Source: Candidatus Omnitrophota bacterium
Lineage (GTDB): Bacteria > Omnitrophota > Gorgyraeia > JABMRG01
Assembly (NCBI GenBank): GCA_028716165.1
Contig: JAQUQI010000005.1
Location: 24,996-88,995, forward strand
Direction of reading: 5' to 3'
DNA: 64,000 nucleotides
How positions within the stretch are numbered: the stretch's first letter is position 1; each line of letters starts with the position of its first letter. The notes under the pieces were generated by a model that was not told where the DNA came from, searched no databases, and saw only the letters and a list, made by a program, of their open reading frames with translations. Position numbers and translations under genes: made by a program. Shown one piece after another: positions 23,511-41,463 of this stretch.

Positions 23511-23788
23511 TACTGCGCAGTTATAATCCAGGCGATATTTTGATAAGTAAGGCACCGTCTTAAAACGCGCGCTTGCCGCTCTTTATTATTTTTTCGGTTT
23601 TTTTCGTGTATCCATGGTGAAAATCTGACCGGGAAGGAGGGAAAAAGTAAAAGCTGATTTTTCAGGATTTTAGCTTGACGCATATTGCTGATTTTGATAA
23701 ACTAATAACACTTATCCTTTAAAAGGATCAAAATAACCGCTGTTTCTGCGTTTAATGCATGAGAACTTATATAAAGGAGGAACGGATA

Positions 23789-25812: not shown

Positions 25813-25932
25813 TATTTGTTTTAAGGCCACGGAAGCCTTCATTTGAGCGGAGAAAAGGCTTGTAGTCTCGGGTACCGGGAATTAATTGAATAATAAGCAT
25901 GATTCCGAAGGCAAGAGAAAGGATATGAACGT

Positions 25933-27240: not shown

Positions 27241-27270
27241 GGCAGGCGCTCTACCCTAATTCTTTCATAG

Positions 27271-28170
27271 TTGAGTAAAAAAATGCAAATAAAAAAAACA
27301 AAAACGATACTATCTAACTATCTTTTTGTCCTGCCGGCTGTTCTTTTGTTTTGCACGTTTCACGTATATCCTTTTATCAATGTATTCCGCTATTCTCTTT
27401 TTCAGTGGGACGGTATATCTCCCGCCATGAAATTCATAGGCCTTGCCAATTTCAAGGACATTTTTACCGCCAATTCCCAGTGGTGGTATTCCATGTGGCA
27501 CGCTTTTTATATCACACTGCTTACTCTGATATTTCAGAATGGTTTGGCATTAATACTGGCGCTTGCCTGTGACAGGGCGATAAAAGGCGCCCAGACCTAC
27601 AGGATGATATTTTTTCTGCCGCCCGTGCTTTCAGGAATAGTGGTAGGCCTTATTTGGCAGTGGATATACGACGGCAATTACGGGCTTTTGAACTATTGGC
27701 TTACGAGGATGGGCATAGGCCATCTTGCCCGCGCCTGGCTGGCTGACCCCAAAACAGCGCTAACATGTGTGGGGGTTGTCCATATGTGGAAAGGTTTTGG
27801 GTGGGGTTTTATTATATTGCTGGCCGGATTACAGTCAATACCGCGGGAATTATATGAAGCCGCTAAAGTGGACGGCGCCGGCGCCTGGGACTCCTTTGTA
27901 AGGGTCACGGTGCCCCTTATGATACCTGTTTTTGTCCTTGTTGTGATACTTACCATATTAAATACTATGCAGATATACGACCTTATAGTTTCTCTTACGG
28001 GCGGCGGCCCCGGATATCACACGGAAGTTCCTATTACAAGGATATTGGCTTCTATGAGAGGCGGTTCCCAGCTTGGTTATGCGTGCGCGCTTGGCGTAGT
28101 GTTCGGCTTGATACTTCTGGCTATTTCGTTCGCGCAGATACAGGGTTCAAAGCTTGTGAAGCAGGAGTAA
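27271..28170 (+). CDS. Sugar ABC transporter permease (MalF/UgpA-type)
   Basis: Six hydrophobic segments. EAA loop ELYEAAKVDGAGAWDSFVRVTVPL. The start may instead be the ATG at 27283. Confidence 0.8.
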   Translation: MSKKMQIKKTKTILSNYLFVLPAVLLFCTFHVYPFINVFRYSLFQWDGISPAMKFIGLANFKDIFTANSQWWYSMWHAFYITLLTLIFQNGLALILALACDRAIKGAQTYRMIFFLPPVLSGIVVGLIWQWIYDGNYGLLNYWLTRMGIGHLARAWLADPKTALTCVGVVHMWKGFGWGFIILLAGLQSIPRELYEAAKVDGAGAWDSFVRVTVPLMIPVFVLVVILTILNTMQIYDLIVSLTGGGPGYHTEVPITRILASMRGGSQLGYACALGVVFGLILLAISFAQIQGSKLVKQE

Positions 28171-28177
28171 TTTTTTT

Positions 28178-29062
28178 ATGCAAAAACCGGCATACTACAA
28201 AGCCAAGCAGTTTTTACTAACATATCTGACCCATATTCTGCTTATTATTGTGTCAGCCAGCTGTATACTGCCTTTGCTGTGGATGTTTGCCTCAAGCCTT
28301 AAAACCCAGGCAACTGTTTTTACGGACATGAGCCTGTGGCCGGCTAATCCCCACTGGGAAAATTTTTATATTGCCTGGACAAGAGGCGGGTTCGGAAAGT
28401 ATTTTTTTAACAGCCTTTTCTATACCATTGTTGTCGTAGTAAGCGTGGTTTTTGTCACTTCAATGGCGGCATATGGCATATCAAGGCTTAAGATACCCGG
28501 TAAGAATATCATATTTTTTGTGTTTCTGGCCGCCATGATGATACCAATACCCGGAGTTTTCGTCGCTCTTTATGTATTATTGAACAAGCTTGGTTTTTTA
28601 AATCCTAATACAGGGTTTTCTTTCCTTGACAATATGATTATGAGGATAGGGTATATGCTGCCTCTGATTAATAGCGGATTATCGCTGGGTATCTATATAT
28701 TAAAGACATTTTTTGATAAGATGCCCGGGGATTTAGAAGATTCGGGCAGGATAGACGGTTGTTCCAAATTCGGCATATACTGGCACATAGCGCTTCCTTT
28801 GGCCAAGCCCGCTATAGCGGTTATTGTTATTTTTAACACTCTGACCGTTTGGAATGAATACCTGCTTGCCATGCTGGTTTTGACCGGAAAGAGCCTGATG
28901 CCCCTTACGAGGGCTTTGATGGTATTCAGAGGGACCCATATCACGGAATATCCTCTTCTTATGTCAGGCATGTCCATAACCGTAATTCCTATAATAATAA
29001 TCTATCTTTTTTTGCAGAAACACATAATAGCAGGCATAACGGCAGGGGCGGTAAAGGGATGA
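28178..29062 (+). CDS. Sugar ABC transporter permease (MalG/UgpE-type)
   Basis: EAA-like loop LEDSGRIDGCSKFGIYWHIALPLAKPA, polytopic. Only 7 nt separate it from the upstream permease. Confidence 0.8.
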   Translation: MQKPAYYKAKQFLLTYLTHILLIIVSASCILPLLWMFASSLKTQATVFTDMSLWPANPHWENFYIAWTRGGFGKYFFNSLFYTIVVVVSVVFVTSMAAYGISRLKIPGKNIIFFVFLAAMMIPIPGVFVALYVLLNKLGFLNPNTGFSFLDNMIMRIGYMLPLINSGLSLGIYILKTFFDKMPGDLEDSGRIDGCSKFGIYWHIALPLAKPAIAVIVIFNTLTVWNEYLLAMLVLTGKSLMPLTRALMVFRGTHITEYPLLMSGMSITVIPIIIIYLFLQKHIIAGITAGAVKG

Positions 29063-29727
29063 TAAATTTTTTTTATTGTTTTGTTCGCGCGTTAAGTCGC
29101 AACATTTTTTTAAGAGAGTCCGGCCCGCGCGCAAGTGTATTAACTTTTTTAGTGTGTTTTACCTGCTTTATGCCGCGAGCTTTTGCTTTAGAACTGCCTG
29201 AAGAAGCCATGGCATATTACAAGGACAATACTGTTGCTTCAGCCGGCATATCGGATGGAGTTGGCCCCACGGTTAAAAAAGCGGAGATAATAGAGGGCGT
29301 TGATATCGGGAGACGAGAGGCCAAAGACTATGATTTTTCCGACAGCTCATTATCGGGCCTTACTATAAAAAGTTGGGAAGCGCTTAACCAAAAAGACGAA
29401 CAGGCCCTGCTTGCTTATACGGCACGGTGTTTTGACCTCTATACCCAGCAGGCAAAAGACCAGCAGGCCAGGATGACCGATTTTGCTCCTTCGGGTTCTG
29501 AAGCCGGGAATGAGGCTTTAAATAATGTGGCTGTCTGCTATTTTATGCTCGGGGAATTTTATAAGCATAAAAAGGATTGGCAAAAATCGGTTGAGAATTA
29601 TAAAAAGGCGGTTGATAATTTTTATTTCGCCCAATACTGGGACCCGCGCGGCTGGTGGTGGAAACCCTCGCAGATATCTCAAGGCGAAGTTGAAAAGATT
29701 AATACCGGATACTATGATAAAGAATAA
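29059..29727 (+). CDS. Hypothetical secreted protein (TPR-like helical), translationally coupled within the transporter/GH operon
   Basis: ATGA overlap with the permease stop. Hydrophobic N-terminus. No recognisable catalytic motif; the true start is uncertain. Confidence 0.4.
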   Translation: MINFFYCFVRALSRNIFLRESGPRASVLTFLVCFTCFMPRAFALELPEEAMAYYKDNTVASAGISDGVGPTVKKAEIIEGVDIGRREAKDYDFSDSSLSGLTIKSWEALNQKDEQALLAYTARCFDLYTQQAKDQQARMTDFAPSGSEAGNEALNNVAVCYFMLGEFYKHKKDWQKSVENYKKAVDNFYFAQYWDPRGWWWKPSQISQGEVEKINTGYYDKE

Positions 29728-31624
29728 TTATTTTCTAAGAGGCTTGAGGTTTTGCCTATTAGCTTTTTTAATTCCGGCTTGCGGTTTTTTCGTATCAGGT
29801 TGCGCTGAAAATATTGTATTTGAAGAAAATCCGGTTTTTAAGCTTTCCGATAAGGGTAGTGAAGAGATAATTAACTATGAAAGATACGGCAGGTTTGACG
29901 GCGCGGGAACGTCGGCTTACAGTTATTCCATAATTGATCAGGCCGGACTTTCCAAGGCTGCCGGAGAAGGTATTCATCCCAACTCGTCGGCTGTTCTAAA
30001 GGACCCGTTGTATAAAGAGCTTAAACAATCGGGAGCGTTGGACGGCACGCACTGGGATTTTATTAACAAGCCTCAATACGCAAAGAATTTTTATAAATGG
30101 GCCGTGGCTGCCGAGGAAAGAGGTGTAAAGCTTTTTTATACCGCCCTTGCCCTTGAAAGGGCCGGTTGTATAAAACAGGCGATTAAAGCCTACTATGCCA
30201 TTGTTGTCCATTTTCCGAAAACCATAGGCTGGACATACTGGAAAACCCCGTGGTATGTCGGCCAGGCGGCCATAGACAGGATAAATTTCTTGTGCCGGCA
30301 ATACCCCCAGCTTGGTTTAAGGCTTGAAGGCGCTTATATTATCGTTGATAATTCTTACGATGATAATCCCAAAACGGATGTTTTTTTGGTAGACCCCGGC
30401 AGGATAGTGAAGGTCAAATCTTCGCGGGTATATGATTATGCCAGGAGAAAAGATCTGCCGCGGAAGAACATAATAAAATCAACCAACGGCGATTTCGTAA
30501 AGCTCGTCCAGTATGAGGACAGGTCGTGGCAGCTTTTAGTTGACGGTAAGCCTTATATCGTAAAAGGGGTTGCTTATGAGCCGAGCAAGATAGGCCAGAG
30601 CCCCGACCAGGGCACTCTTGAGGATTGGATGCAGTATGACTACAACAAAAATAATAAGATAGACGGGCCATATGACGCGTGGGTTGATCACAACAGAAAC
30701 GATATACAGGATCCGGAAGAAAAGCCCGTCGGCGATTTCAGGCTTTTATGGGAAATGGGCTGTAATACCATAAGGGTTTATAACCATGCCTCAAATAAAC
30801 CCTTGTTAAAGGATCTGTATGAAAACTTTGGCATTATGTCGCTTATGGGGGATTTTTTAGGCGCTTATGCCGTAGGCTCGGGCGCCAGCTGGTACAAGGG
30901 GACGGATTATTCAGACCCCGTACAACAGCAGAACATGCTTGATAACCTGAAGAAAATGGTTGAGGAGCATAAACAGGAAAAATATGTGCTTATGTGGGTC
31001 CTGGGAAATGAAAATAATTACGGTGTTGCCAATAGCGCCAAGCGCGATCCGGTGTCATATTACAGATTCGCTAATAAGGCCGCTGAATTGATAAAATCCA
31101 TAGACCCATATCATAGGCCTGTGGTAATAAGCAACGGCGAAGTAAAGTTTATTGATATATTCGCCAAAGAATGCCCTGCCGTGGATGTCTTCGGCCTGAA
31201 CGCTTACCGCGGGGATTATGGTTTTGGCCATCTCTGGCTGACGGCAAAACGCGAAACAGACAGGCCTGTCTTGATAACGGAATACGGCTGCCCGGCTTAC
31301 AATGGATATACGGATGCCGAAACGGCAGAGGACCAGCAGGCGCAATATCTTAAAAATTGCTGGATAGACGTTGTTTCCAATTCCAACGGCTGGGGCCAGG
31401 GTAACGCTATAGGGGCTGTCTTGTTTGAGTGGTCGGATGAATGGTGGAAGGCCTATGAACCGTATATGCATGATACCAAACCTCTGTGGGCTGGCAATTT
31501 TCCCGGAGGATGGATGTATGAGGAATGGCTCGGCATCGCGTCGCAGGGTTCAGGGAAGAACAGCCCGTTTCAGAGAGTCTTAAGAAAGTCGTATTATGAA
31601 TATAAAAAGTTGTGGAGAGGTTAA
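29714..31624 (+). CDS. Clan GH-A (GH5-like) glycoside hydrolase lipoprotein
   Basis: The real start is the ATG at 29714 (MIKNNYF...), lipobox VSGC. The ORF-track start at 29525 is an out-of-frame extension across the upstream gene. WVLGNE, ITEYGCPAYN and FEWSDEWWK motifs parallel those of the ORF at 24535. Confidence 0.65.
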   Translation: MIKNNYFLRGLRFCLLAFLIPACGFFVSGCAENIVFEENPVFKLSDKGSEEIINYERYGRFDGAGTSAYSYSIIDQAGLSKAAGEGIHPNSSAVLKDPLYKELKQSGALDGTHWDFINKPQYAKNFYKWAVAAEERGVKLFYTALALERAGCIKQAIKAYYAIVVHFPKTIGWTYWKTPWYVGQAAIDRINFLCRQYPQLGLRLEGAYIIVDNSYDDNPKTDVFLVDPGRIVKVKSSRVYDYARRKDLPRKNIIKSTNGDFVKLVQYEDRSWQLLVDGKPYIVKGVAYEPSKIGQSPDQGTLEDWMQYDYNKNNKIDGPYDAWVDHNRNDIQDPEEKPVGDFRLLWEMGCNTIRVYNHASNKPLLKDLYENFGIMSLMGDFLGAYAVGSGASWYKGTDYSDPVQQQNMLDNLKKMVEEHKQEKYVLMWVLGNENNYGVANSAKRDPVSYYRFANKAAELIKSIDPYHRPVVISNGEVKFIDIFAKECPAVDVFGLNAYRGDYGFGHLWLTAKRETDRPVLITEYGCPAYNGYTDAETAEDQQAQYLKNCWIDVVSNSNGWGQGNAIGAVLFEWSDEWWKAYEPYMHDTKPLWAGNFPGGWMYEEWLGIASQGSGKNSPFQRVLRKSYYEYKKLWRG

Positions 31625-31640
31625 TAAAAAAGGAGGAGAC

Positions 31641-32243
31641 ATGGGTAAAAAAAGATTTTTAGGTTTTATCCTTATGGCGGCCGTGGTTTTTACGACAATG
31701 GCGCTGAAGGCGCAGGCGGTTGATTATTTTGAACCGTTTAATATTTATTCGGACAGGAATGCCCGCGGCAATCACTTTGCCCCGTCGGGGTGGATGGGCG
31801 ATTATAATGACATTTCTTTCACGGATGCCTGGCAGGACAGCCCGCATTCGGGCGCTACGTGCATAAAGATTGTGTATAGGCCCAATGCTTCGCAGGGCGC
31901 CAGATGGGCGGGTATGTATTGGCAGAATCCGCCGAATAACTGGGGAGAGAAAAAAGGAGGCTTTGACCTGACAGGCGCCAGAAAACTGACATTTTGGGCC
32001 CGCGGCGAAAAAGGCGGCGAGCGCCTGGAGGAAGTCAAGGTAGGCGGAATTAACGGGGCTTATCCTGATTCGGATATTGCATCGGCAGGACCCATCATAC
32101 TCACGAAAGACTGGCAGCAATACAGCATAGACCTGAAAGGCAAAGATCTTACATATATCAGCGGCGGGTTTGTATGGGCTACCAACCTTGACGTTAACCC
32201 GGAAGGGTGCACGTTTTATCTTGATGACATAAGGTATGAGTAA
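31641..32243 (+). CDS. Secreted CBM-like beta-sandwich protein (paralog 2 of 3)
   Basis: RBS AAGGAGG 4 nt upstream of the ATG at 31641. Signal peptide. Same conserved domain as the ORF at 23789 (FNIYSDRNARGNHFAPSGWMGDYNDI ... YWQNPPNNWGEKKGGFDLTGA..L.FWARGEKGGE). Confidence 0.6.
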   Translation: MGKKRFLGFILMAAVVFTTMALKAQAVDYFEPFNIYSDRNARGNHFAPSGWMGDYNDISFTDAWQDSPHSGATCIKIVYRPNASQGARWAGMYWQNPPNNWGEKKGGFDLTGARKLTFWARGEKGGERLEEVKVGGINGAYPDSDIASAGPIILTKDWQQYSIDLKGKDLTYISGGFVWATNLDVNPEGCTFYLDDIRYE

Positions 32244-32247
32244 AAAC

Positions 32248-32292
32248 ATGCCCGGGATAAATATTTTTTAATTTGTCCCGGGCGTATTTTTT
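32248..32292 (+). terminator. Terminator-like hairpin after the CBM-like gene at 31641
   Basis: ATGCCCGGGA, an 18-nt AT-rich loop, TCCCGGGCGT, then ATTTTTT. Confidence 0.45.
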
Positions 32293-32304
32293 CAAATATA
32301 AGCA

Positions 32305-34434
32305 ATGACCCGACATTATAGCGGACGCAGAAAATACATAAGGCTGGATTCATGTTTTCCTGTTGAATTCAGCCTTTCTCTTTGCGCGGATAATCCTGCC
32401 CGCCAATACCAGGGCTTTACATGTGATGTGTCCGAAGGAGGGATATGCCTTAAAGCAAAAGGCCTGTCTCCCGAGCAGGAAAAGATTCTATCAGAGAAAG
32501 GGTCTGAATTGGATTTAATTATACACATGCCTCTAAGAGGCAAGCCTGTGCCGGCCAGAGCGGAAATCATGTGGACAAGCAAACCGCGCCAAAGCCCGGA
32601 TAGCGGGCAGGGTATTGATATAGGCCTTCAATATTCTGCCATAGATGACGCTGACAGGGCCAGGGTTATAAATTATGCCCGCAGGCTCAAATGGCTGCCG
32701 CGTATCGCGGCGCTGTTGTTTCTTGCGCTATTTTTTTTCATGTTTATACTCGCTTTCTACCATATTAAATCTATAGGCATAAATAAGTTCCTGGTAAGGC
32801 GCGTAGTTTCTATTTCAATGATAAAATCGCGCATAGAGCGCCAGCTAAATGAGGTCAGGGTAAGGAAGGACATGCTGGAGTCCGGGCTGTCAAAGGGCAC
32901 GGCTGATGAAGACAATCTTAGGTCGCAAATAGCATTTATTGAAAAAAGAGCCGATGAAGAAAAGCTTAGGCTCAAGTCCATGCTGGAGCAGTCGGACCTT
33001 GAGAAAAAAAGAATTGAATCCCAGATTGATAATCTTCAGGCAGGGCAGGAAGGCGCTAACAGCATGGCTTCCATGGTCATAGAGTCAAGGCTTTCCCGGA
33101 TTAATTCCGATACTGAACTTTTGCAGATGGAATTAGAAGAGGTCCTTAAGAAGGCCGCGCTTGAGAAAAAGACGCTTGAAGGAAGGCTTCAATCACTTAA
33201 GCAGGAAAATGAAGCGTTAAAAAAAGGATTGAAGTCAACGTTTGAAGACGAGGAATTACTGGAAGAACAGCTTGCCGGATTAAGGTATGAAAGCGGCGGC
33301 GTTGAAAAGGCCGGCATAGAACGTATGTTTGAATGGGTAAAGTTGAGACAGGTCAGAAAGACCGGCCTTGTATTAAGCTATGAAGGAGACCCCTCGCTTA
33401 AGGACTGGGCGTTTATTTACGACCAGGCGCTTGCGGCGCAGGCCTTTATTTTTATGGACGAACCCGAACGGGCTAAAAACGTCCTTGACTTTTTTAACAA
33501 TAAAGCCGCGCTTAGCGAAGGCCTGTTTTATAATGCCTATGACGCAAAAACAGCCGACCCGAGAGAGTACACCGTTCATTCGGGCCCTAATATATGGGTG
33601 GCTATATCTGCCTGTCAATATACCTACTGGATGGGCAATGCCCAATTTCTTGAGATGGCTGAAAGAATAGCCTTGAAAATGATCGGTATGCAGTCCGCGT
33701 CACCGGATGGAAGCATTAGCGGAGGCCCCGGCGTCAACTGGGTCAGCACAGAACATAATATTGATGCTTATGCCTTATTCAACATGCTCTACAGGTTGAC
33801 CAATAAACAGGAGTATGCCTCTGCCGCGCTGAAAGCGCTTGATTGGCTTAAAACGTCAGGTTATAATAGCCAGGAAGCCAGGTTTATGCGGGGCAAAGGA
33901 GATGCCACTATTGCCACAGATACCTTTTCCTGGGCCATAGCCGCCCTGGGGCCAAAGGCGCTTTTAAATAACGGTATGGATCCCGATGGTATAATGGAAT
34001 TTGCCGAAAAGGAATGCAGGGTACGGGTGAAGTTTTACAGGCCATCCGGCAGTGTTATTGATGTGACGGGCTTTGATTTTTCTAAGGCCGGCAATATGGC
34101 CCGCGGAGGAATCGTTTCAACGGAATGGACCGCGCAGATGATAGTCGCGTTAAAAATAATGGCTGATTATTATAAGATTGCCGGCGATACTGTCAAACAG
34201 AACGTATATGGTTCCAAGGCCGAGTATTATCTGGCGCAACTCGGCCAGATGGTCATATCGTCGCCATCTCCCACGGGCCAGGGCCAGGGCTGCCTTCCAT
34301 ACGCGTCTATTGACAATGTTGACACAGGACATGGCTGGCGTGTCGCCTGCGGCCGGCGGACAGGTTCTGTAGCCGGCACGATTTATTATATATTTGCTTA
34401 TACAGGTTATAACCCGCTCTCCCTTGATATCTGA
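32305..34434 (+). CDS. PilZ-domain / transmembrane / coiled-coil protein with a C-terminal (alpha/alpha)6-like glycoside-hydrolase-like domain
   Basis: N-terminal PilZ signatures RRKYIRLD (RxxxR) and DVSEGGICL (DxSxGG). A TM helix at about aa 135-155. A ~170-aa heptad-rich coiled coil. The C-terminal ~400 aa is a helical toroid-like domain (…YDQALAAQAF…GPNIWVAISACQY…TGSVAGTIYYIFAY). Confidence 0.55.
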   Translation: MTRHYSGRRKYIRLDSCFPVEFSLSLCADNPARQYQGFTCDVSEGGICLKAKGLSPEQEKILSEKGSELDLIIHMPLRGKPVPARAEIMWTSKPRQSPDSGQGIDIGLQYSAIDDADRARVINYARRLKWLPRIAALLFLALFFFMFILAFYHIKSIGINKFLVRRVVSISMIKSRIERQLNEVRVRKDMLESGLSKGTADEDNLRSQIAFIEKRADEEKLRLKSMLEQSDLEKKRIESQIDNLQAGQEGANSMASMVIESRLSRINSDTELLQMELEEVLKKAALEKKTLEGRLQSLKQENEALKKGLKSTFEDEELLEEQLAGLRYESGGVEKAGIERMFEWVKLRQVRKTGLVLSYEGDPSLKDWAFIYDQALAAQAFIFMDEPERAKNVLDFFNNKAALSEGLFYNAYDAKTADPREYTVHSGPNIWVAISACQYTYWMGNAQFLEMAERIALKMIGMQSASPDGSISGGPGVNWVSTEHNIDAYALFNMLYRLTNKQEYASAALKALDWLKTSGYNSQEARFMRGKGDATIATDTFSWAIAALGPKALLNNGMDPDGIMEFAEKECRVRVKFYRPSGSVIDVTGFDFSKAGNMARGGIVSTEWTAQMIVALKIMADYYKIAGDTVKQNVYGSKAEYYLAQLGQMVISSPSPTGQGQGCLPYASIDNVDTGHGWRVACGRRTGSVAGTIYYIFAYTGYNPLSLDI

Positions 34435-34542: not shown

Positions 34543-37500
34543 ATGCCCGGCAAAGTAAAATATTATTTTGGTAAAAATAATGAGTTCATAATAGACAATT
34601 ATTATCTTGCCAAGCCGTTTTCAAGTTTCTTTTGCGGCATAGCCGGCCAATGGGGCGTTCCCGCGTGGGTTTTTTATGTAAATCGCGGCCAGGCAATAGC
34701 TTCATTCGGCACGAAGGATAAAGATAATCCGATAATGGAATTTCAGCCTGCCAACAAATCTTATTATCTTGGCCCGATACTCGGTTTCAGGACTTTTATA
34801 AAAATAATGAGCGCTTCAGGGCCTGTTTTTTATGACGCGTTTTCAACAAGCCTTCACAATAGTTCATATGATATTAAAAATTCCATGATCATTACTTCTG
34901 CCGGGCTTAAACTGTCCGAGGTCAATCACACGCTGGGCATCGGGGTTTGCGTAGAATATTTTACCATACCCGGAGACACTTACGGCGCCCTTGCCAGAAA
35001 GGTAACTATAACCAATCTGGCAAAAGAAGCGAAAGAATTTGAGGTATTAGACGGCCTGCCGCAGATTCAGCCTTATGGCGTAAATAATTTTTTTTTAAAA
35101 CAGATGTCGCGCACTATTGAAGCCTGGGTTGTGGTTGAAAACCTTGAGAATGACCTGCCGTTTTTCAGGCTCAAAGTGGAGCCGGCCGACCGTCCGGAGG
35201 TTGTGCATGTAAAAAGAGGTAATTTTTATGCGCCCTTTGATTCTAAGGGGGCAATGAAAGTAATTGTTCAGCCTGATCTTGTTTTCGGCGCGCAAAACGA
35301 CCTAATCATTCCCGCCGCTTTTTTACGAAAGGGCTTTTTCCCGGTTCCAAAGTGCCAGTTTGCCAAGTCAAAGACTCCTTGCGCGTTCGCGTATAAACGT
35401 ATCAGGCTTAAGCAGGGTGATGAGTATGTTTATCATTCTATTTCCGGCAATATCAGCAGTCTGGACAATCTGAAGGCCCAGTCAAAGCGCATAACAGAAC
35501 CGGCTTATTTTGACCGCAAAAAGATAGAGAACGATTCTCTTGTCGCGTCTTTACAAAGCACTGTGTTTACCAAGTCCTCGTCGGCCGCGTTTGATTCATA
35601 CTGCGCTCAAAATTTTCTTGACAATATAATGCGCGGAGGGTATCCGGTTTCCATAGAGTATGCTTCGGGCAGGAAAAACCTGTATCTGTATTCCCGTAAA
35701 CACGGCGACCTTGAACGCGATTATAATATGTTTTTGCTTGAACCTTCCTGTTTTTCACAGGGCAACGGTAATTACCGTGACATTAATCAAAACCGCAGGT
35801 GCGATGCCTGGTTTAACCCGGCGCTCGGCAGTGAAAATATATATTATTTTTTCAACCTTCTACAGACCGATGGGTATAACCCGCTCGTAATATGCCCCGA
35901 CCGGTTTGAATTCAATCAAGACAAGGCCGCGATAAGCGGTTTTTTAAACCGTTATAATATGGAAAAGGTATCGGCATTTCTTAAAAATGATTTTACTCCC
36001 GGCGAGCTGATGAACTTTATTGACAGCAATAACATCATGCTAAGAGGCTCCAGGCCCGGCCTGTTAAGCGTTATTATGGAGAATTCAACAAAACATTCGC
36101 ACGCGGTTCATGGAGAAGGATTTTGGACGGACCACTGGCATTATTGCCTTGACCTTCTGGAGAGTTTTGCTGGGTTATACCCTGAAATGTTGAATGAAAT
36201 ATTGTTCCAAAAAGAGGATTTTACTTTCTTTGACAACGCGTATATTGTTAGTCCAAGAAGCAAAAGGCATCTCCTGCATAAAGGTTTTTTTAGGCAATTC
36301 GGCAGTGTTGTAAAAGACGCTGAAAAGGAAAGTATTATCGCTTCACGGGGAAGGCCGGCTAATATATCAAGGTCTAAAAACGGCAAAGGCGGCATATATA
36401 ATACGACACTGCTTGTCAAGATGGCGGTTGTTATAGCCAATAAATTCGCAAGCCTGGACCCCTTCGGCTGCGGCATAGAAATGGAAGCGGATAAACCTAA
36501 TTGGTATGACTCTCTCAACGGCCTGCCCGGGCTTTTGGGTTCATCAACTTGCGAGACTTTTGAGTTAAAAAGATGGATCATGTTTTTAAGGGGCGCGGTC
36601 GCGGGATTAGGGCCTGCGAAGAAAAACAGCGCCCGTATCCCGGTTGAGCTATATGACCTATTAAACGGATTATGCCGGACATGCGAAAGCGGCTTAAGCG
36701 ATTTCACGCGCTGGGACAGGAGAAACAGCTTAAAAGAAAAATACCGCTTAAAGACAAAATTTGGTTTTGAAGGCAGTGAAAAAGAAATAAGGCTTAAAGA
36801 GCTGGATTCTATATTGCGCGTATTTTTGTCGTTAATTGACAGGGGCCTGGAAAAGGCTTATGATAAAAAGTCAAAACTTTACCGCTCTTATTTTATCAAT
36901 GAGGCGGTTGAATATAGCGCTGTATCAAAAGATCCGGACAAGGTTTATGCCAGGGCCGGGAAATTCCGGCAGACGCCTCTTCCTTTTTTTCTTGAAGGCA
37001 TGGTACACGCGTTCAGGGTATCCGGCAAAAAGGATTGCCTGAAATATCACAAGACGGTCCGCTCCAGCGGGCTGTTTGATAAAAAGCTTAAAATGTATAA
37101 AGTCTGCGCAGCGCTTTGCAGCATGCCGGAAGAGATAGGCCGTTCGCGCGTGTTTACTCCGGGCTGGCTTGAGAATGAATCTGTCTGGCTGCATATGGAA
37201 TATAAATATATGCTGGAATTATTGAAATCAGGCCTTTACAGGGAATTTTTTGATGATTTTCGCAATGTTTTTGTTCCGTTCATGAAACCGGAGATATACG
37301 GCAGGAGTATATTTGAAAATTCTTCTTTTATTGTCTCAAGCGCTTTTCCTGAAAAGGGCCTTCATGGCAATGGTTTTGTGGCGCGCTTAAGCGGTTCAAC
37401 GGCGGAATTCATAAATATCTGGCTGATTATGTGCCTGGGGCATAGGCCGTTTTATTTAGACAAGGAAGCAAGGTTATGCGCCGGATTCAAGCCCATCCTT

Positions 37501-37764
37501 CCCGGCTGGTTGTTCACCGCGGGGCCGGCAGAGGGGTTTGCGAAAGGTGTTTTCGCGTTTAGTTTTCTTTCAAAGACGCAGGTGGTTTATCATAATCCTT
37601 TGAGAAAAGATACTTTCGGCCCGTCAGGGGCAAAAATAAAGAGTATTTTTATGCGATGGACAGACGGCAGGACAGCCCGGTTTAAGGGTGCCTCTATACC
37701 GTATCCTTATTCAAACGACATAAGAAAAGGCGATATTTCGCGTATAGAGATAGAAATGGCCTGA
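34543..37764 (+). CDS. Large (1073 aa) putative glycoside phosphorylase/hydrolase distantly resembling the GH94 superfamily (GH94/GH149/GH161-like)
   Basis: No signal peptide. N-terminal beta-sandwich-like region followed by an (alpha/alpha)6-like region (…DHWHYCLDLLESFAGLYPEM…). Adjacent to a bona fide GH94 gene. This assignment is weak. Confidence 0.4.
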   Translation: MPGKVKYYFGKNNEFIIDNYYLAKPFSSFFCGIAGQWGVPAWVFYVNRGQAIASFGTKDKDNPIMEFQPANKSYYLGPILGFRTFIKIMSASGPVFYDAFSTSLHNSSYDIKNSMIITSAGLKLSEVNHTLGIGVCVEYFTIPGDTYGALARKVTITNLAKEAKEFEVLDGLPQIQPYGVNNFFLKQMSRTIEAWVVVENLENDLPFFRLKVEPADRPEVVHVKRGNFYAPFDSKGAMKVIVQPDLVFGAQNDLIIPAAFLRKGFFPVPKCQFAKSKTPCAFAYKRIRLKQGDEYVYHSISGNISSLDNLKAQSKRITEPAYFDRKKIENDSLVASLQSTVFTKSSSAAFDSYCAQNFLDNIMRGGYPVSIEYASGRKNLYLYSRKHGDLERDYNMFLLEPSCFSQGNGNYRDINQNRRCDAWFNPALGSENIYYFFNLLQTDGYNPLVICPDRFEFNQDKAAISGFLNRYNMEKVSAFLKNDFTPGELMNFIDSNNIMLRGSRPGLLSVIMENSTKHSHAVHGEGFWTDHWHYCLDLLESFAGLYPEMLNEILFQKEDFTFFDNAYIVSPRSKRHLLHKGFFRQFGSVVKDAEKESIIASRGRPANISRSKNGKGGIYNTTLLVKMAVVIANKFASLDPFGCGIEMEADKPNWYDSLNGLPGLLGSSTCETFELKRWIMFLRGAVAGLGPAKKNSARIPVELYDLLNGLCRTCESGLSDFTRWDRRNSLKEKYRLKTKFGFEGSEKEIRLKELDSILRVFLSLIDRGLEKAYDKKSKLYRSYFINEAVEYSAVSKDPDKVYARAGKFRQTPLPFFLEGMVHAFRVSGKKDCLKYHKTVRSSGLFDKKLKMYKVCAALCSMPEEIGRSRVFTPGWLENESVWLHMEYKYMLELLKSGLYREFFDDFRNVFVPFMKPEIYGRSIFENSSFIVSSAFPEKGLHGNGFVARLSGSTAEFINIWLIMCLGHRPFYLDKEARLCAGFKPILPGWLFTAGPAEGFAKGVFAFSFLSKTQVVYHNPLRKDTFGPSGAKIKSIFMRWTDGRTARFKGASIPYPYSNDIRKGDISRIEIEMA

Positions 37765-37883: not shown

Positions 37884-40316
37884 ATGAACCTGAAAAAATA
37901 CGGCTATTTTTCCAAAGACCGTCTTGAATTTATTATAACTAATCCTGTCACCCCCAGGCCTTGGATTAATTATCTTACCAATGAAGACTATTGCGCCGTT
38001 ATATCGCAAAATGCCGGAGGTTATAGTTTTTACAAAGACTGCCGAAGCGATAGGATACTGCGGTGGCAGCCCGATAACTGGCATTTTGACAGGCCGGGCA
38101 GGTATATTTATCTAAGGGATAAAAATACCGGTAAATGCTGGTCAGCCTCTTATCAGCCGATGAGGGTCAAACCGCAATTTTATCAGTCGCGGCATGGCTT
38201 GGGTTATACTATTACAAATACCACATATTACGGTATTAACATTGAAACCACATTTTTTGTCCCTTGCCATGATACCTGTGAAGTGTGGCATGTGAAGATA
38301 TCAAATGATACGTCAAAGACTAAAAACCTGGAGGTATATCCGTACGCGGAATGGCTTCTTGGGGATTACCATCAGGAACTTCGTTACCGCAATATAATGA
38401 ACCTTTACAATAGGGTCTGGTTTGATAAAACCAAAAAGGCCGTGTTTGCCAAAAAAACGGCATTCTGGGCGGATATGCGGATAAAACCCTATCCTTATAT
38501 AAATTTTCTTGCTTCAAGCCTTCCTGTGGCAGGCTATGCCACGCAAAAAGACGGTTTCTTGGGGCGATATAATACGGAGGAAACGCCGCAGGCTGTCCTT
38601 GAGGGGAGTTTTAAGAATTCAGGGTTTACTTCAGGCGAGGATTCTATAGCGTGTCTCAAACATAATGTGGTTTTGAAACCCGGCTCGCGCAAGGAATTTA
38701 CCATAGTGCTGGGGCAGACCGACAAAGATGACCATCTATCCGATATACTTGCAAAATACCGCAATGTTAAAAAAGCAAAAGAAGAATTTGCCAGAGTCAA
38801 GGCGCTTTGGAAGAAGAGAATCGCAGACAACATTGTGATAGAAACGCCGGATGATGATTTTAATAATATGATGAATTACTGGGTTAAGTACCAGGTTTAT
38901 ATATGTAATTTTTGGTCGCGTTCACCCAGTTATTATCATGAAGGTTCAGGCGGGCGGGGATACAGAGATTCATGCCAGGACGCTGAAAGTATTATGGCTA
39001 TAGACACAAAGCACGCCAAAAAGAAAATCAGGCGCATAGTTTCTCTTATCAGAAAAGACGGCACATGCGCCCCGGGTTTTTCCGATACCACAGGCCCTGC
39101 CGGCCACAGGCCGAACAAGGACCATCCTATTTGGCTTACCATGACTGTGTCGGCCTATGTCAAAGAGACCGGTGATAAGGAAATATTGCTTGAATATGCC
39201 CCCTATCTTAAAGACAAATGGATAAACGGCTGGTCTGTTGACACAAACTATCAGGCCGGCATTTCTACCGACGGGGAAGGGACTATATTTGACCATCTTG
39301 AGAGGAACCTGAATTTTACCTTTAATGATGTAGGGCCCAGAGGCCTGCCTCTTATAGGCCACGCGGACTGGAATGACGCGATAGACGCCGCCGGTATCAA
39401 GCTTAAGGGGGAAAGCGTCTGGCTTGCTATGGCGCTTGTCAGAAGCCTTAAGACATTGGCTGAAATGGCACTGCTTATAGGTCAAACGGAAAAAGCCGAT
39501 CAGCTTTTACATAAAGCCGGCACAATGACCGGCAGGATAAATGATTCCGCCTGGGACGGGAATTGGTACGTAAGGGGTTTTACTGATGAAGGGTTTATTT
39601 ACGGTTCCCGCAAAAATAAGGAAGGCAGGGTGTTTATCAATACGCAGAGCTGGGCCGTGCTTTCCGGTGTGGCTGATGCCGCGCGCAGAGAAAAAATACT
39701 GAAATCCGTTGATAAATATCTTAATGGTCCGCACGGCCTGGCGTTATTTTATCCGGCTTTTTCCAAATGGGACAGCAGATTAGGAAGGATCAGCATGTTT
39801 TCGGAAGGCACCAAGGAGAATGCCGCGGTATTTTGCCACGCGGTCATGTTTCAAGCGGTCGCGGAATGTATGGCCGGCCGAGGGAACAAGGCATATGAGG
39901 CTATGAAGAAGATCATGCCATGTAATCAGAAGGACTACGATCTTTATAAGACAGAACCTTTCGCCTATGCGGAATATATTGTAGGCCCCCAGCACCCTTA
40001 TCTCTCCGGAGAGGGCGCTTTTACATGGATAACGGGTAATGCGGGTTGGAATTTTTTGGCGGCTACCGAATGGGTATTGGGCGCCAGGCGCGAATATGAA
40101 GGTTTGCGTATAGATCCCTGTATACCAAGTTCCTGGAAACAGGCAAGGATAAAAAGGCCTTTTAGAGGGTCTATTTATGATATATTGATCAAAAACCCTG
40201 ATAACAAAGAAAAGGGAGTCAAAAAGCTTATTGTTGATGGCAGGCAGATGGAGTCAAATCTTATTTATCCGCACTCGGACGGCAATGTCCATAAAGTTGA
40301 GGTTCTTTTAGGCTGA
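37884..40316 (+). CDS. GH94 glycoside phosphorylase (cellobiose/chitobiose/cellodextrin phosphorylase family)
   Basis: The N-terminus matches GH94 throughout: PRPWINYLTNEDYCAVISQNAGGYSFYKD ... RHGLGYTITNTTYYGINIETTFFVP ... EVWHVKISN. 810 aa, cytoplasmic. RBS ATAGGAGA. Confidence 0.8.
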   Translation: MNLKKYGYFSKDRLEFIITNPVTPRPWINYLTNEDYCAVISQNAGGYSFYKDCRSDRILRWQPDNWHFDRPGRYIYLRDKNTGKCWSASYQPMRVKPQFYQSRHGLGYTITNTTYYGINIETTFFVPCHDTCEVWHVKISNDTSKTKNLEVYPYAEWLLGDYHQELRYRNIMNLYNRVWFDKTKKAVFAKKTAFWADMRIKPYPYINFLASSLPVAGYATQKDGFLGRYNTEETPQAVLEGSFKNSGFTSGEDSIACLKHNVVLKPGSRKEFTIVLGQTDKDDHLSDILAKYRNVKKAKEEFARVKALWKKRIADNIVIETPDDDFNNMMNYWVKYQVYICNFWSRSPSYYHEGSGGRGYRDSCQDAESIMAIDTKHAKKKIRRIVSLIRKDGTCAPGFSDTTGPAGHRPNKDHPIWLTMTVSAYVKETGDKEILLEYAPYLKDKWINGWSVDTNYQAGISTDGEGTIFDHLERNLNFTFNDVGPRGLPLIGHADWNDAIDAAGIKLKGESVWLAMALVRSLKTLAEMALLIGQTEKADQLLHKAGTMTGRINDSAWDGNWYVRGFTDEGFIYGSRKNKEGRVFINTQSWAVLSGVADAARREKILKSVDKYLNGPHGLALFYPAFSKWDSRLGRISMFSEGTKENAAVFCHAVMFQAVAECMAGRGNKAYEAMKKIMPCNQKDYDLYKTEPFAYAEYIVGPQHPYLSGEGAFTWITGNAGWNFLAATEWVLGARREYEGLRIDPCIPSSWKQARIKRPFRGSIYDILIKNPDNKEKGVKKLIVDGRQMESNLIYPHSDGNVHKVEVLLG

Positions 40317-41429: not shown

Positions 41430-41463
41430 TTAGAAAAGTTTTTATTTGTATCCGGGAGATACT

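What the first reader, a model, noticed from the sequence alone, without database searches (positions are those of the whole stretch)
32305..34434. PilZ (c-di-GMP receptor) domain fused through a TM helix and long coiled coil to a glycoside-hydrolase-like toroid domain
The N-terminus has both PilZ signatures (RxxxR and DxSxGG). The C-terminal ~400 aa look like an (alpha/alpha)6 GH-type domain on the other side of the membrane. A c-di-GMP-sensing membrane protein with an extracytoplasmic glycanase-like domain inside a glycan-utilisation cluster would couple second-messenger state to polysaccharide processing. That recalls the cellulose synthase logic (PilZ in BcsA; GH8 BcsZ) but in a single novel polypeptide.
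Basis: partly seen in the sequence, partly recalled or inferred. Interest (0 to 1): 0.6.

Follow-up and report, generated by a model that had tools for sequence, protein, structure and literature searches.

The report
Membrane c-di-GMP receptor with periplasmic glycosidase-like barrel
This gene encodes a membrane protein, conserved across the little-known phylum Omnitrophota, that joins an intracellular sensor for the signal molecule c-di-GMP to a sugar-enzyme-like domain outside the inner membrane, so it may let the cell's internal state control carbohydrate processing in the cell envelope, although no activity has been tested.

Summary

- The barrel belongs to the six-hairpin glycosidase superfamily but to no defined GH family.
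- Its only sequence-level relative is GH76, and the GH76 catalytic Asp-Asp is replaced by an invariant Gly-Pro.
- A different conserved acidic set (D373, E483, D539, E607) sits at the inner-helix N-termini.
- The "long coiled coil" is more likely an antiparallel hairpin (arms of 93 and 95 aa; indels in 20 homologues all centred on the predicted tip). That gives an Alg44-like layout: PilZ, TM, periplasmic helical hairpin.
- No glycan synthase is nearby, so the BcsA/BcsZ analogy is loose.

The protein is not unique. Relatives occur in 436 GTDB species genomes, essentially all Omnitrophota. Only the clade of at least 47% identity sits in this beta-glucan uptake and phosphorolysis cluster (ABC importer, GH161, GH94) downstream of a giant gene. 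It is an uncharacterised new variant of PilZ effector, and its function is inferred.

The parts
32326..32679 (+). Cytoplasmic canonical PilZ domain (residues 8-125). It carries R9xxxR13 and D41xS43xxG46. The model shows beta-strands at 12-112 followed by the C-terminal PilZ helix from residue 115.
   Evidence: Pfam PF07238 gives 43.1 bits, above the GA of 22.5. The motifs align to the solved PilZ protein 5vx6. Motif conservation is 72/72 and 71/72.
32695..32763 (+). Single transmembrane helix (residues 131-153, LPRIAALLFLALFFFMFILAFYH). In the model it is continuous with the PilZ C-terminal helix.
   Evidence: Kyte-Doolittle hydropathy is 2.77 over 19 aa, and this is the only segment above 1.6. 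Helix 115-246 is unbroken in the AF2 model.
32764..33042 (+). Periplasmic helical stalk, ascending arm (residues 154-246, about 93 aa).
   Evidence: AF2 predicts helix 115-246. The composition is E/L/K-rich.
33043..33060 (+). Predicted hairpin tip or helix break (residues 247-252, QAGQEG region).
   Evidence: AF2 shows a break at 247-252 with a dip in pLDDT. Indels of 18-78 aa in 20 homologues are all centred at residues 250.5-259.5. G/P residues lie at relative position 0.45-0.50 in all long-clade members.
33061..33345 (+). Periplasmic helical stalk, descending arm (residues 253-347, about 95 aa). It leads into the barrel.
   Evidence: AF2 predicts helix 253-347. The arm length nearly equals that of the ascending arm.
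33346..34431 (+). Periplasmic (alpha/alpha)6 barrel (residues 348-709) of an unassigned six-hairpin glycosidase-superfamily family. Conserved pocket candidates are Y372-D373-Q374, G427-P428-N429-x-W431, T482-E483-H484-N485-x-D487, R529-G-x-G-D533...D539-T540..W543, E607-W608-T-x-Q611, Y666 and H676.
32248..32295 (+). Terminator-like hairpin (15-bp stem, 7 G-C pairs, then ATTTTTT). It lies between the stop of the upstream 215-aa gene and the target ATG.
   Evidence: Found by the consensus scan. It is not conserved in locus L003, where the two genes abut. Its role is unknown.
31596..32243 (+). Conserved upstream neighbour: a secreted ~200-215 aa protein (signal peptide, weak choice-of-anchor-J-like match). 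Paralogues lie at 23759..24433 and in the C-terminus of 41446..42753.
   Evidence: The NCBIfam match is weak. It is present immediately upstream in L003, L009, L012-L017 and others. Paralogy is shown.
34543..37764 (+). Downstream neighbour: GH161-family glycan phosphorylase (1073 aa).
   Evidence: phmmer against PDB gives E=1.6e-217 and 728 bits to 9qqk GH161A. It is adjacent to target homologues in all loci of at least 47% identity that extend far enough.
37884..40316 (+). GH94 phosphorylase (810 aa), closest to cellobiose and chitobiose phosphorylases.
   Evidence: Pfam GH94 gives 351 bits. PDB 3qde matches at E=3.7e-142 and 1v7v at 8.3e-127.
24535..31624 (+). Upstream part of the cluster: a GH2_C-like TIM barrel (425 aa), a CUT1-type SBP, two ABC permeases, a 222-aa TPR-like protein and a GH2_C-like 699-aa putative lipoprotein.
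   Evidence: Pfam hits are. The same order is seen in L003, L012, L014, L016 and L038.
43598..47518 (+). Second member of the same barrel family in the window: a secreted PKD/Big_7 surface protein (1306 aa). It has a paralogous (alpha/alpha)6 domain (residues about 110-494) and a CFI-box-CTERM sorting signal.
   Evidence: hmmsearch with the C-terminal profile gives E=3.5e-13. The protein keeps SYDQ, STEQN, VATD, SVEISSQM and APYAS. Pfam PKD is and CFI-box-CTERM.
1..15519 (+). 3' part of a giant gene (more than 5172 codons, open from base 1). The cluster lies downstream of it.
   Evidence: Frame 0 is open from base 1, and the ORF list is. This matches the locus organisation described for Omnitrophota giant genes.

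Best explanation
The gene encodes a bitopic inner-membrane c-di-GMP effector. Its N-terminal canonical PilZ domain sits in the cytoplasm and binds c-di-GMP; this is inferred from intact, universally conserved motifs. The PilZ C-terminal helix runs straight into the single TM helix. That helix continues into a periplasmic helical stalk of about 190 residues, which most likely folds back as an antiparallel hairpin about 14 nm long. The stalk returns the chain to a periplasmic (alpha/alpha)6 barrel.

The barrel is a member of a previously undescribed family of the six-hairpin glycosidase superfamily. That family is also found as secreted standalone proteins, in a PKD surface protein of this same window, and inside Omnitrophota giant proteins. 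The barrel lacks the GH76 catalytic Asp-Asp. It keeps a deeply conserved set of carboxylates and aromatics (D373, N429/W431, E483, D539, E607, Y666) at the N-termini of the inner helices, which is where (alpha/alpha)6 enzymes build their active-site pocket.

The most likely mechanism is inside-out signalling. c-di-GMP binding, probably with PilZ dimerisation through the C-terminal helix as in Alg44, would change the packing or oligomeric state of the TM-stalk assembly. That change would switch the activity, accessibility or partner engagement of the periplasmic glycan-cleaving or glycan-binding barrel.

In this lineage the gene has been recruited into a beta-glucan and oligosaccharide harvesting cluster downstream of a giant gene. 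The cluster comprises secreted TIM-barrel glycanases, CBM-like proteins, an ABC importer, and cytoplasmic GH161 and GH94 phosphorylases. Envelope glycan processing would therefore be tied to the c-di-GMP state.

Shown: domain content, fold, topology logic, conservation and gene context. Inferred: c-di-GMP binding, catalysis, hairpin geometry and the direction of signalling.
For: - PilZ: the HMM hit is above cutoff and both binding motifs are present. The motifs are conserved in 72/72 and 71/72 homologues. Galperin & Chou note that PilZ domains in fusion proteins retain c-di-GMP binding and that the C-terminal helix mediates dimerisation in Alg44.
- Topology: there is a single TM helix. A continuous helix runs from 115 to 246. 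Standalone barrel homologues carry signal peptides or lipoboxes, so the domain family is extracytoplasmic. Diderm markers are in the window.
- Pocket residues: about 60 columns are invariant, concentrated at inner-helix N-termini. D373, E483, D539, E607 and Y666 are retained in distant standalone relatives and in the window's PKD paralogue.
- MmpH and clan GH-L enzymes use an Asp/Glu acid plus a Glu base in the same kind of pocket.
- Hairpin: the arms are equal in length, and nested indels are centred on the predicted tip.
- Context: the cluster is conserved in all loci of at least 47% identity and recurs in some 40% loci. The published note on pilZ plus SBP transporters plus GHs downstream of Omnitrophota giant genes, many of which carry GGDEF domains, is.
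Against: - No biochemical data exist for any member of the family.
- The barrel matches no GH family HMM above threshold. Its nearest sequence relative (GH76) has lost its catalytic dyad here, so the domain could be non-catalytic.
- I could not inspect model coordinates. Clustering of D373, E483, D539 and E607 in one pocket is inferred from (alpha/alpha)6 topology and was not measured.
- AF2 monomer models tend to fold long helices back on themselves. The G/P midpoint test was inconclusive for the short clade, and gap placement in coiled-coil sequence is soft.
- About two thirds of family members sit in an unrelated conserved block (HhH-GPD, M20 peptidase, PAC2, LPG_synthase_C) with no glycan genes. 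The family's core function is therefore not beta-glucan utilisation as such.
- No GGDEF or EAL domain was found in the window.
Confidence: 0.5

Rival explanations
1. Alg44-like non-catalytic adaptor. The protein would be a c-di-GMP-gated structural component of a trans-envelope machine, such as polysaccharide export, a T2SS- or pilus-like apparatus, or secretion of the giant protein. The helical hairpin would dock to periplasmic or outer-membrane partners, as in membrane-fusion proteins and polysaccharide copolymerases. The barrel would act only as a glycan- or protein-binding module.
For: - The layout of PilZ, TM and periplasmic helical hairpin mirrors Alg44, which is a PilZ fused to an HlyD-type protein.
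- The GH76 catalytic dyad is lost.
- One clade sits next to four pseudopilin (N_methyl) genes.
- The window has a T2SS-C/PDZ-like gene at 47572.
- The preprint reports T2SS-like loci around giant genes.
Against: - There is no HlyD/MFP beta-barrel or lipoyl domain and no Pfam HlyD hit.
- No GT2 synthase or outer-membrane channel is adjacent in the window.
- A purely structural module would not be expected to keep about 60 invariant residues that include five carboxylates at the barrel mouth, nor to share them with secreted standalone homologues.
Confidence: 0.22
2. Outside-in or coincidence sensor. The periplasmic barrel would bind a specific oligosaccharide, for example a beta-glucan fragment. 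Together with c-di-GMP occupancy of PilZ, this would control a cytoplasmic partner, such as the ATPase of the adjacent ABC importer (which is not encoded in the cluster) or the phosphorylases.
For: - The gene lies between the transporter and phosphorylase genes.
- No ABC ATPase gene is in the cluster.
- The basic C-terminal helix of PilZ is a known protein-interaction surface.
- Bidirectional signalling is documented for the c-di-GMP receptor LapD (title and abstract of PMC5231407, listed).
Against: - PilZ has no known enzymatic output. No partner is identified here.
- Most family members are not next to transporters.
- The conserved acidic pocket is equally compatible with catalysis.
Confidence: 0.13
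3. Periplasmic sugar epimerase or isomerase of the AGE (N-acylglucosamine 2-epimerase / cellobiose 2-epimerase) type, tethered to the membrane and regulated by c-di-GMP.
For: - H484 and H676 are invariant within the PilZ clade. AGE enzymes use two catalytic histidines (this is from my own knowledge of the family).
- The Pfam GlcNAc_2-epim model gives weak hits in 2/29 members and in related proteins.
Against: - Both histidines are lost in standalone and PKD-linked relatives, which keep the carboxylates instead.
- Known AGE enzymes are cytoplasmic and act on free sugars.
- Positional equivalence of the histidines was not tested.
Confidence: 0.07
4. An ordinary GH76 alpha-1,6-mannanase domain that simply happens to be membrane-anchored.
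For: GH76 is the only family found by sequence. Pfam PF03663 hits 14/29 members at E<0.1, with a best E of 1.3e-5. PDB GH76 chains match at E=1.4e-4 to 0.9.
Against: - The hits are below the Pfam gathering score (15.6 against 25.9) and cover only three central helices.
- The catalytic Asp-Asp aligns to an invariant Gly-Pro.
- The conserved E483 has no counterpart in GH76 in those alignments.
- The gene context points to beta-glucans, not mannan.
Confidence: 0.03

Closest known systems
Alg44 (Pseudomonas aeruginosa alginate co-polymerase; PilZ fused to an HlyD/MFP-like periplasmic domain)
   Same: Both have an N-terminal cytoplasmic canonical PilZ with RxxxR, a single TM helix and a periplasmic part with a coiled-coil or hairpin character. 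In Alg44, c-di-GMP binding on the inside controls a polysaccharide process in the envelope.
   Different: Alg44's periplasmic part is MFP/HlyD-like and non-enzymatic, and it works with the GT2 synthase Alg8. Here the periplasmic end is an (alpha/alpha)6 glycosidase-superfamily barrel. No HlyD domain and no synthase gene is present.
BcsA (PilZ) plus BcsZ (GH8) of bacterial cellulose synthase
   Different: In Bcs the PilZ is C-terminal to a GT2 synthase and gates synthesis, and BcsZ is a separate soluble protein. Here there is no synthase. The two functions are in one chain, the barrel is not GH8 by sequence, and the cluster is catabolic (importer plus phosphorylases).
LapD/LapG inside-out c-di-GMP signalling
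   Same: Conceptually, both are inner-membrane c-di-GMP receptors that transmit cytoplasmic nucleotide occupancy to a periplasmic output controlling an extracytoplasmic hydrolytic event (titles and abstracts of PMC3032553 and PMC3032545, listed).
   Different: LapD senses c-di-GMP with a degenerate EAL domain through a HAMP relay, and it sequesters a separate protease. Here the sensor is PilZ, there is no HAMP, and the putative enzyme is covalently attached.
MmpH (mycobacterial methylmannose polysaccharide endo-hydrolase, PDB 7qsj) and clan GH-L-type inverting enzymes (GH15, GH125, the GH15-related isomaltose glucohydrolase 5z3a)
   Different: Identity is only 9-13% and there is no HMM-level similarity. 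Residue equivalence was not verified. MmpH and most GH15 enzymes are soluble and have no signalling domain.
GH76 alpha-1,6-mannanases (e.g. Salegentibacter GH76A 6shd, BT_3782 4mu9)
   Different: The match is below the Pfam threshold. The catalytic Asp-Asp is replaced by Gly427-Pro428. The target's invariant E483 is absent from GH76.
'Conserved pilZ genes' downstream of Omnitrophota giant genes (West-Roberts et al., bioRxiv 10.1101/2023.11.21.568195)
   Same: The phylum and locus layout are the same: giant gene, then pilZ, SBP-dependent carbohydrate transporters and glycosyl hydrolases. GH76-like folds are noted inside the giant proteins. This gene is very likely one of those pilZ genes.
   Different: The preprint describes them as small pilZ homologues. 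In the passages I read, it does not describe a TM helix, a stalk or a C-terminal barrel. I could not see its figure to confirm that the genes are identical.

Membership tests
PilZ domain (Pfam PF07238), canonical type | HMM match above the curated threshold | tested here: met
   43.1 bits against a GA of 22.5, E=5.8e-11, residues 8-125. 28/29 aligned homologues also match.
PilZ domain (Pfam PF07238), canonical type | c-di-GMP-binding motifs RxxxR and (D/N)xSxxG | tested here: met
   R9xxxR13 and D41xS43xxG46 are present. They align with the motifs of solved PilZ 5vx6. Conservation is 72/72 and 71/72, with S/G at the third position.
PilZ domain (Pfam PF07238), canonical type | [quoted passage not shown] | tested here: met
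   The AF2 model has strands 12-24, 34-43, 46-51, 68-73, 82-92 and 104-112, then a helix from residue 115. The canonical feature is described.
PilZ domain (Pfam PF07238), canonical type | Actual binding of c-di-GMP | not testable with these tools
   This requires ITC, DRaCALA or MST with purified residues 1-125.
Six-hairpin glycosidase superfamily, (alpha/alpha)6 barrel | Twelve helices in two concentric layers; significant structural similarity to known members | tested here: met
GH76 | Pfam PF03663 match above the gathering score | tested here: not met
   15.6 bits against 25.9, covering residues 432-530 only. The best among 29 homologues is E=1.3e-5.
GH76 | Catalytic Asp-Asp pair (nucleophile and acid/base) at the start of the 'DDxxW' helix | tested here: not met
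   In profile alignments, 6shd 'fiDDmeWLGIA', 6shm 'fiAAmeW' (the D136A/D137A mutant) and 4mu9 'DDNIW' all align to the target's invariant 'hsGPNIW' (G427-P428).
GH15 / clan GH-L-like inverting enzymes (including MmpH and GH125) | Sequence-family membership (HMM) | tested here: not met
   There is no Pfam, NCBIfam or PDB sequence hit to GH15, GH125 or MmpH.
GH15 / clan GH-L-like inverting enzymes (including MmpH and GH125) | General acid (Asp/Glu) and general base (Glu) positioned across the pocket | tested here: inconclusive
   Candidates D373, E483, D539 and E607 are universally conserved and lie at inner-helix N-termini. The MmpH residues D47/D50 and E262 are known. No structural superposition or coordinates were available to establish equivalence.
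AGE-superfamily epimerases/isomerases | Two catalytic histidines on opposite sides of the pocket | tested here: inconclusive
   H484 and H676 are invariant in the PilZ clade but absent in wider family members. Their spatial equivalence was not tested. Pfam GlcNAc_2-epim gives weak hits in 2/29 members.
Alg44-type PilZ-TM-periplasmic adaptor | N-terminal PilZ followed by a single TM helix | tested here: met
Alg44-type PilZ-TM-periplasmic adaptor | Periplasmic HlyD/MFP-type domain | tested here: not met
   No HlyD or MFP Pfam hit was found in the target or in 29 homologues. Only a helical hairpin-like stalk is shared.
Alg44-type PilZ-TM-periplasmic adaptor | Genetic linkage to a GT2 polysaccharide synthase | tested here: not met
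   There is no GT2 gene in the 64-kb window or next to the homologues examined. A GT2 gene lies 9 kb away in L001 only.
CAZy family assignment in general | dbCAN / CAZy HMM match | not testable with these tools
   dbCAN is not among the available libraries. Pfam and NCBIfam GH models gave nothing above threshold.

The most novel reading that the evidence does not exclude
The protein is the first PilZ-based inside-out switch for a periplasmic glycan-cleaving enzyme. c-di-GMP, possibly made by GGDEF domains of the neighbouring giant 'archaeovorin'-type protein on prey contact, would bind the cytoplasmic PilZ. It would re-pack a dimeric or oligomeric TM-hairpin stalk and so activate or deploy a new family of (alpha/alpha)6 glycanases in the periplasm. 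This would couple the predatory or epibiotic attack state of Omnitrophota to the harvesting of envelope or prey beta-glucans, which are then imported and phosphorolysed by GH161 and GH94. The barrel would define a new CAZy GH family with a D373/E483/D539/E607-type catalytic centre.
Probability: 0.15. Interest if true: 0.8.

Novelty: new variant of a known kind. Interest (0 to 1): 0.58.

Why it matters
PilZ is the most widespread c-di-GMP receptor. Its known fusion partners are cytoplasmic or synthase-linked: GT2 in BcsA, HlyD-like in Alg44, and PilZN, REC, MCP, GGDEF/EAL and kinase domains. A PilZ wired through the membrane to a glycosidase-superfamily barrel would extend c-di-GMP control to degradative or remodelling chemistry in the periplasm. 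It would also give a second, structurally simpler model of inside-out second-messenger signalling besides LapD.

The protein is nearly universal in Omnitrophota (436 species genomes). This phylum of ultra-small, probably predatory or host-dependent bacteria has almost no experimentally characterised proteins. In one clade the gene is embedded in the conserved gene set downstream of the giant genes. The barrel itself is an unclassified, widespread extracytoplasmic module (840 clusters at 50% identity, including copies inside giant proteins), so characterising it could define a new glycoside hydrolase family.

All functional claims are still predictions.

Tried and rejected
1. Direct sequence search of the protein against PDB found only chance hits. 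A full-length profile search was swamped by coiled-coil matches. A trimmed C-terminal profile (A3) was needed to expose the GH76 alignments.
2. I first labelled the 1073-aa neighbour GH149-like from a weak NCBIfam hit. I rejected that in favour of GH161 after the PDB search gave 728 bits.
3. I tested whether the glycan cluster is a family-wide context. It is not: most ~40%-identity homologues lie in an unrelated syntenic block.
4. I looked for other PilZ domains or GGDEF/EAL domains in the window with Pfam and with family-specific profiles. None was found.
5. The G/P-midpoint test for a hairpin tip was suggestive for the long clade but inconclusive for the short clade. The indel-centre test was more informative.
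7. The AFDB Foldseek library was unavailable.
8. The Rfam scan found no RNA family. In particular there is no c-di-GMP riboswitch near the hairpin upstream of the gene.
9. Model coordinates are not exposed to scripts. Pocket geometry, the possible C571-C663 disulfide and hairpin packing could therefore not be measured.
10. I considered that the antisense ORFs inside the gene (32316..32582, 33373..33645 and others) might be real. I dismissed them, because the sense frame is conserved across hundreds of genomes.


Full report

Yes. The ORF listing returns a single 709-codon ORF at exactly 32305..34434 on the + strand. Pfam scores residues 8-125 as PilZ (PF07238) at 43.1 bits, E=5.8e-11, well above the gathering cutoff of 22.5.

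In a profile search of PDB they line up with the RxxxR and NxSxxG motifs of the solved PilZ protein YpfA/MotI (5vx6).

A Kyte-Doolittle scan finds one, and only one, strongly hydrophobic 19-23-residue segment (131-153, score 2.77). It is followed by about 190 residues rich in E, L and K.

The C-terminal ~365 residues were modelled twice with AlphaFold2. The first run modelled the domain alone with a 73-sequence alignment (pLDDT 89.5, pTM 0.91). The second modelled it as part of the full-length protein (pLDDT 86.8, pTM 0.73). Both give twelve helices in the (alpha/alpha)6 arrangement.

**2. How widespread is it, and where?**

A word-indexed search found more than 226 clusters with the same full-length architecture (630-727 aa). 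Wherever a source names them, they are called only 'PilZ domain-containing protein [Candidatus Omnitrophota]' or 'hypothetical protein'.

A scan of one genome per GTDB species, using two barrel motifs, found relatives in 436 genomes. Essentially all are Omnitrophota; the few 'uncultured Planctomycetia' labels are third-party PVC bins. The window therefore comes from an Omnitrophota genome, and the protein is a phylum-wide family, not a singular fusion.

The PilZ motifs are conserved in 72/72 (RxxxR) and 71/72 ((D/N)x(S/G)xxG) of the aligned homologues. This fits the observation by Galperin & Chou that PilZ domains in fusion proteins stay under selection for c-di-GMP binding.

**3. What is the C-terminal domain?**

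At the sequence level, nothing passes a curated threshold. Only GH76 appears: Pfam gives 15.6 bits against a cutoff of 25.9 over residues 432-530, and 14 of 29 homologues match at E<0.1.

I built a C-terminal-only profile (A3) and searched PDB. Only GH76 chains came up (E=1.4e-4 to 0.9), and the alignments are informative. The catalytic pair of Salegentibacter GH76A ('fiDDmeWLGIA' in 6shd; 'fiAAmeW' in the D136A/D137A mutant 6shm; 'DDNIW' in 4mu9) aligns with the target family's invariant 'hsG427-P428-NIW'. The defining GH76 catalytic dyad is therefore absent. The target's invariant E483 has no GH76 counterpart in the same alignments. This is not a GH76 enzyme.

**4. Is the barrel still likely to be functional?**

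The barrel is the most conserved part of the protein, with about 60 invariant columns across sequences that are 40% identical overall. Overlaying conservation on the DSSP strings places the invariant polar motifs at the N-terminal ends of successive inner helices:
- Y372-D373-Q374 at helix 371
- G-P-N429-x-W431 at helix 426
- T-E483-H-N-x-D487 at helix 482
- D533...D539-T-x-x-W543 at helix 543
- E607-W-T-x-Q611 at helix 606

In (alpha/alpha)6 enzymes these ends form the central pocket.

An exhaustive HMMER search with the barrel alone found 840 clusters at 50% identity (373 at E<=1e-10) in three architectures: the PilZ type, standalone 370-450-aa proteins, and domains inside giant proteins of 2,000-7,900 aa. 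The standalone proteins begin with signal peptides or lipoboxes. This is independent evidence that the module works outside the cytoplasm.

Across these distant relatives D373, N429/W431, E483, D539, E607 and Y666 persist. H484, H676 and the C571/C663 pair are restricted to the PilZ clade.

The window itself holds a second member. The signal-peptide-bearing PKD/Big_7 protein at 43598..47518 matches the profile at E=3.5e-13. It retains SYDQ, STEQN, VATD, SVEISSQM and APYAS, and it ends in a CFI-box-CTERM sorting signal.

MmpH, the closest compact structural neighbour, is an inverting endo-hydrolase. Asp47/Asp50 act as its acid and Glu262 as its base in an acidic pocket (PMC9883506). By relative position, the target's D373 and E607 could play these roles. 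I could not superpose coordinates, so this remains an inference.

My reading is that the barrel is a distinct, undescribed family of the six-hairpin glycosidase superfamily, with a carboxylate-rich pocket. It is most probably catalytic, possibly of the GH-L-like inverting type. A purely binding role is not excluded.

**5. The linker is probably a hairpin, not a straight coiled coil.**

The full-length model has one unbroken helix from the PilZ C-terminal helix through the TM segment to residue 246. A short break follows at 247-252, and then a second helix runs from 253 to 347 into the barrel. After the membrane, the two arms are 93 and 95 residues long.

Equal arms and a pTM of 0.73 for a 709-residue chain suggest an antiparallel fold-back hairpin of about 14 nm. 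This would return the barrel to the vicinity of the inner membrane.

An independent test supports this. In 20 homologues whose stalks differ from the query by 18 to 78 residues, the missing block is always centred at query residues 250.5-259.5, that is, on the predicted tip. That pattern is what symmetric lengthening and shortening of a hairpin predicts.

There are caveats. A G/P-at-midpoint test was positive for all ten long-clade members but not decisive for the short clade. AF2 monomer models are biased toward fold-backs. Gap placement in repetitive helices is soft.

If the hairpin is correct, the layout (N-terminal PilZ, TM, periplasmic helical hairpin) is that of Alg44. Alg44 is a PilZ fused to an HlyD/membrane-fusion-type protein, and its PilZ C-terminal helices mediate dimerisation. 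The difference is that an enzyme-like barrel takes the place of the MFP domains.

**6. Genomic context.**

The window is almost entirely + strand. It opens inside a giant gene (frame 0 is open from base 1 to 15519, more than 5,172 codons).

Downstream lie, in order:
- a GH2_C-like TIM barrel
- a CUT1 solute-binding protein and two ABC permeases
- a 222-aa TPR-like protein
- a 699-aa GH2_C-like putative lipoprotein
- a 215-aa secreted protein
- the target
- a GH161 phosphorylase (728 bits to PDB 9qqk)
- a GH94 phosphorylase closest to cellobiose and chitobiose phosphorylases
- several unknowns, the PKD-barrel protein and a T2SS-C/PDZ-like protein
- at the right end, BamD, LptE, holA and MurJ, which establish a diderm envelope

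The layout matches what West-Roberts et al. describe for Omnitrophota: giant genes followed by conserved pilZ genes, SBP-dependent carbohydrate transporters and glycosyl hydrolases, with GH76-like folds and often GGDEF domains inside the giant proteins (bioRxiv 10.1101/2023.11.21.568195). I found no GGDEF or EAL domain within this window.

The linkage is clade-specific. Every locus of at least 47% identity that extends far enough keeps GH161, GH94, the ~200-aa upstream protein or the GH2_C-like genes. A few ~40% loci also do (L026, L042, L078, L084, L089).

About two thirds of the 91 loci examined sit elsewhere. They lie in a conserved block with an HhH-GPD glycosylase downstream (46 loci), M20 peptidase and PAC2 (37 each), a TPR-DUF3857-transglutaminase protein upstream (31) and LPG_synthase_C (26). 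One clade lies next to pseudopilin genes. The family's core role is therefore an envelope function that is not specific to beta-glucan use, and this lineage has co-opted or retained it in the giant-gene glycan cluster.

**7. Mechanism.**

The best-supported model (confidence about 0.5) is an inside-out c-di-GMP effector.
- c-di-GMP binds the cytoplasmic PilZ. The motifs are intact; binding itself is inferred.
- The PilZ C-terminal helix, which is continuous with the TM helix, transmits a change in dimerisation or packing to the periplasmic stalk.
- That change alters the activity, exposure or partner contacts of the periplasmic barrel, which cleaves or binds a glycan.

The rivals are:
- an Alg44-like non-catalytic adaptor of a trans-envelope machine (0.22)
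- a glycan-sensing coincidence detector that acts on a cytoplasmic partner such as the missing ABC ATPase (0.13)
- an AGE-type epimerase (0.07)
- a plain GH76 mannanase (0.03; contradicted by the catalytic-motif test)

**8. Comparison with known systems and novelty.**

By function it is closest to Alg44 (same topology and sensor) and, conceptually, to LapD (inside-out c-di-GMP control of a periplasmic hydrolytic step).

By membership it is a bona fide canonical PilZ protein. It is a member of the six-hairpin superfamily but of none of its defined families that I could test. The published census of PilZ fusions lists GT2, HlyD, PilZN, REC, GGDEF, EAL, HD-GYP, MCP, CheC and kinase partners, but no glycosidase-like partner. 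My literature searches found no description of this architecture.

I rate it a new variant of a known kind: a PilZ effector with a new, extracytoplasmic, enzyme-like output. Interest is about 0.58. It is a testable and fairly surprising wiring of c-di-GMP to periplasmic glycan chemistry in a poorly understood phylum, but it rests entirely on prediction.

Noticed in passing
window 1..15519 (+): This is the 3' part of a giant gene. Frame 0 is open from base 1, so the ORF runs off the left edge and exceeds 5,172 codons. There are no Pfam domains except a weak 2H-phosphodiesterase-like hit near the C-terminus. It fits the Omnitrophota giant-gene loci described in bioRxiv 10.1101/2023.11.21.568195.
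   Followed up: partly
window 43598..47518 (+): A secreted 1,306-aa PKD/Big_7 protein carries a paralogue of the target's (alpha/alpha)6 barrel (residues about 110-494, profile E=3.5e-13). It also has a CFI-box-CTERM sorting domain, so the same barrel family is deployed twice in one locus: once PilZ-anchored and once surface-displayed.
   Followed up: partly
window 23759..24433, 31596..32243, 41446..42753 (+): Three paralogous secreted proteins share a ~170-aa domain (phmmer E=8e-79 and 8e-24). The domain is weakly 'choice-of-anchor J'-like and may be a carbohydrate-binding module. One copy is always immediately upstream of the target in the glycan-cluster clade.
   Followed up: partly
window 32248..32295 (+): A strong terminator-like hairpin (15-bp stem, then ATTTTTT) ends only ~10 nt before the target's ATG, with no obvious promoter in between. 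It is absent in the related locus L003, where the two genes abut. It could be a terminator for the upstream gene or a regulatory leader. No Rfam match was found.
   Followed up: partly
window 34543..37764 (+): The 1,073-aa protein has no Pfam hit and only a weak GH149 NCBIfam hit. It is in fact a clear GH161 phosphorylase (728 bits to PDB 9qqk/9h8v), so Pfam and NCBIfam lack a model for this family.
   Followed up: yes
window 48432..52463 (+): A 1,343-aa protein with no family hit has homologues next to distant (39-48% identity) target homologues in L020, L078, L084 and L089. This suggests a recurrent association.
   Followed up: no
window 29059..29727 and 29525..31624 (+): The listed start of the 699-aa GH2_C-like ORF overlaps the preceding 222-aa gene by ~200 nt. 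The real start is probably the internal Met before 'MIKNNYFLRGLRFCLLAFLIPACGFFVSGC', which reads as a lipoprotein signal. The protein would then be an exported lipoprotein glycanase.
   Followed up: no
target residues C571 and C663 (window ~34015 and ~34291): Two cysteines are invariant in the PilZ clade but not in standalone barrel homologues. They may form a periplasmic disulfide. Their distance could not be checked without model coordinates.
   Followed up: no
loci L001, L002, L005, L006 (upstream gene of the target homologue): In the 'core' context a ~790-810-aa TPR-DUF3857-transglutaminase-core protein ends 4 nt inside, or 4 nt before, the start of the PilZ-barrel gene. It is present in 31 of 91 loci. 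This tight spacing suggests translational coupling and a possible functional partner.
   Followed up: partly
window, whole length: Nearly all predicted genes are on the + strand, and cumulative GC skew rises monotonically across all 64 kb. This is consistent with one long co-directional replichore segment. No Rfam family reached threshold anywhere in the window.
   Followed up: no
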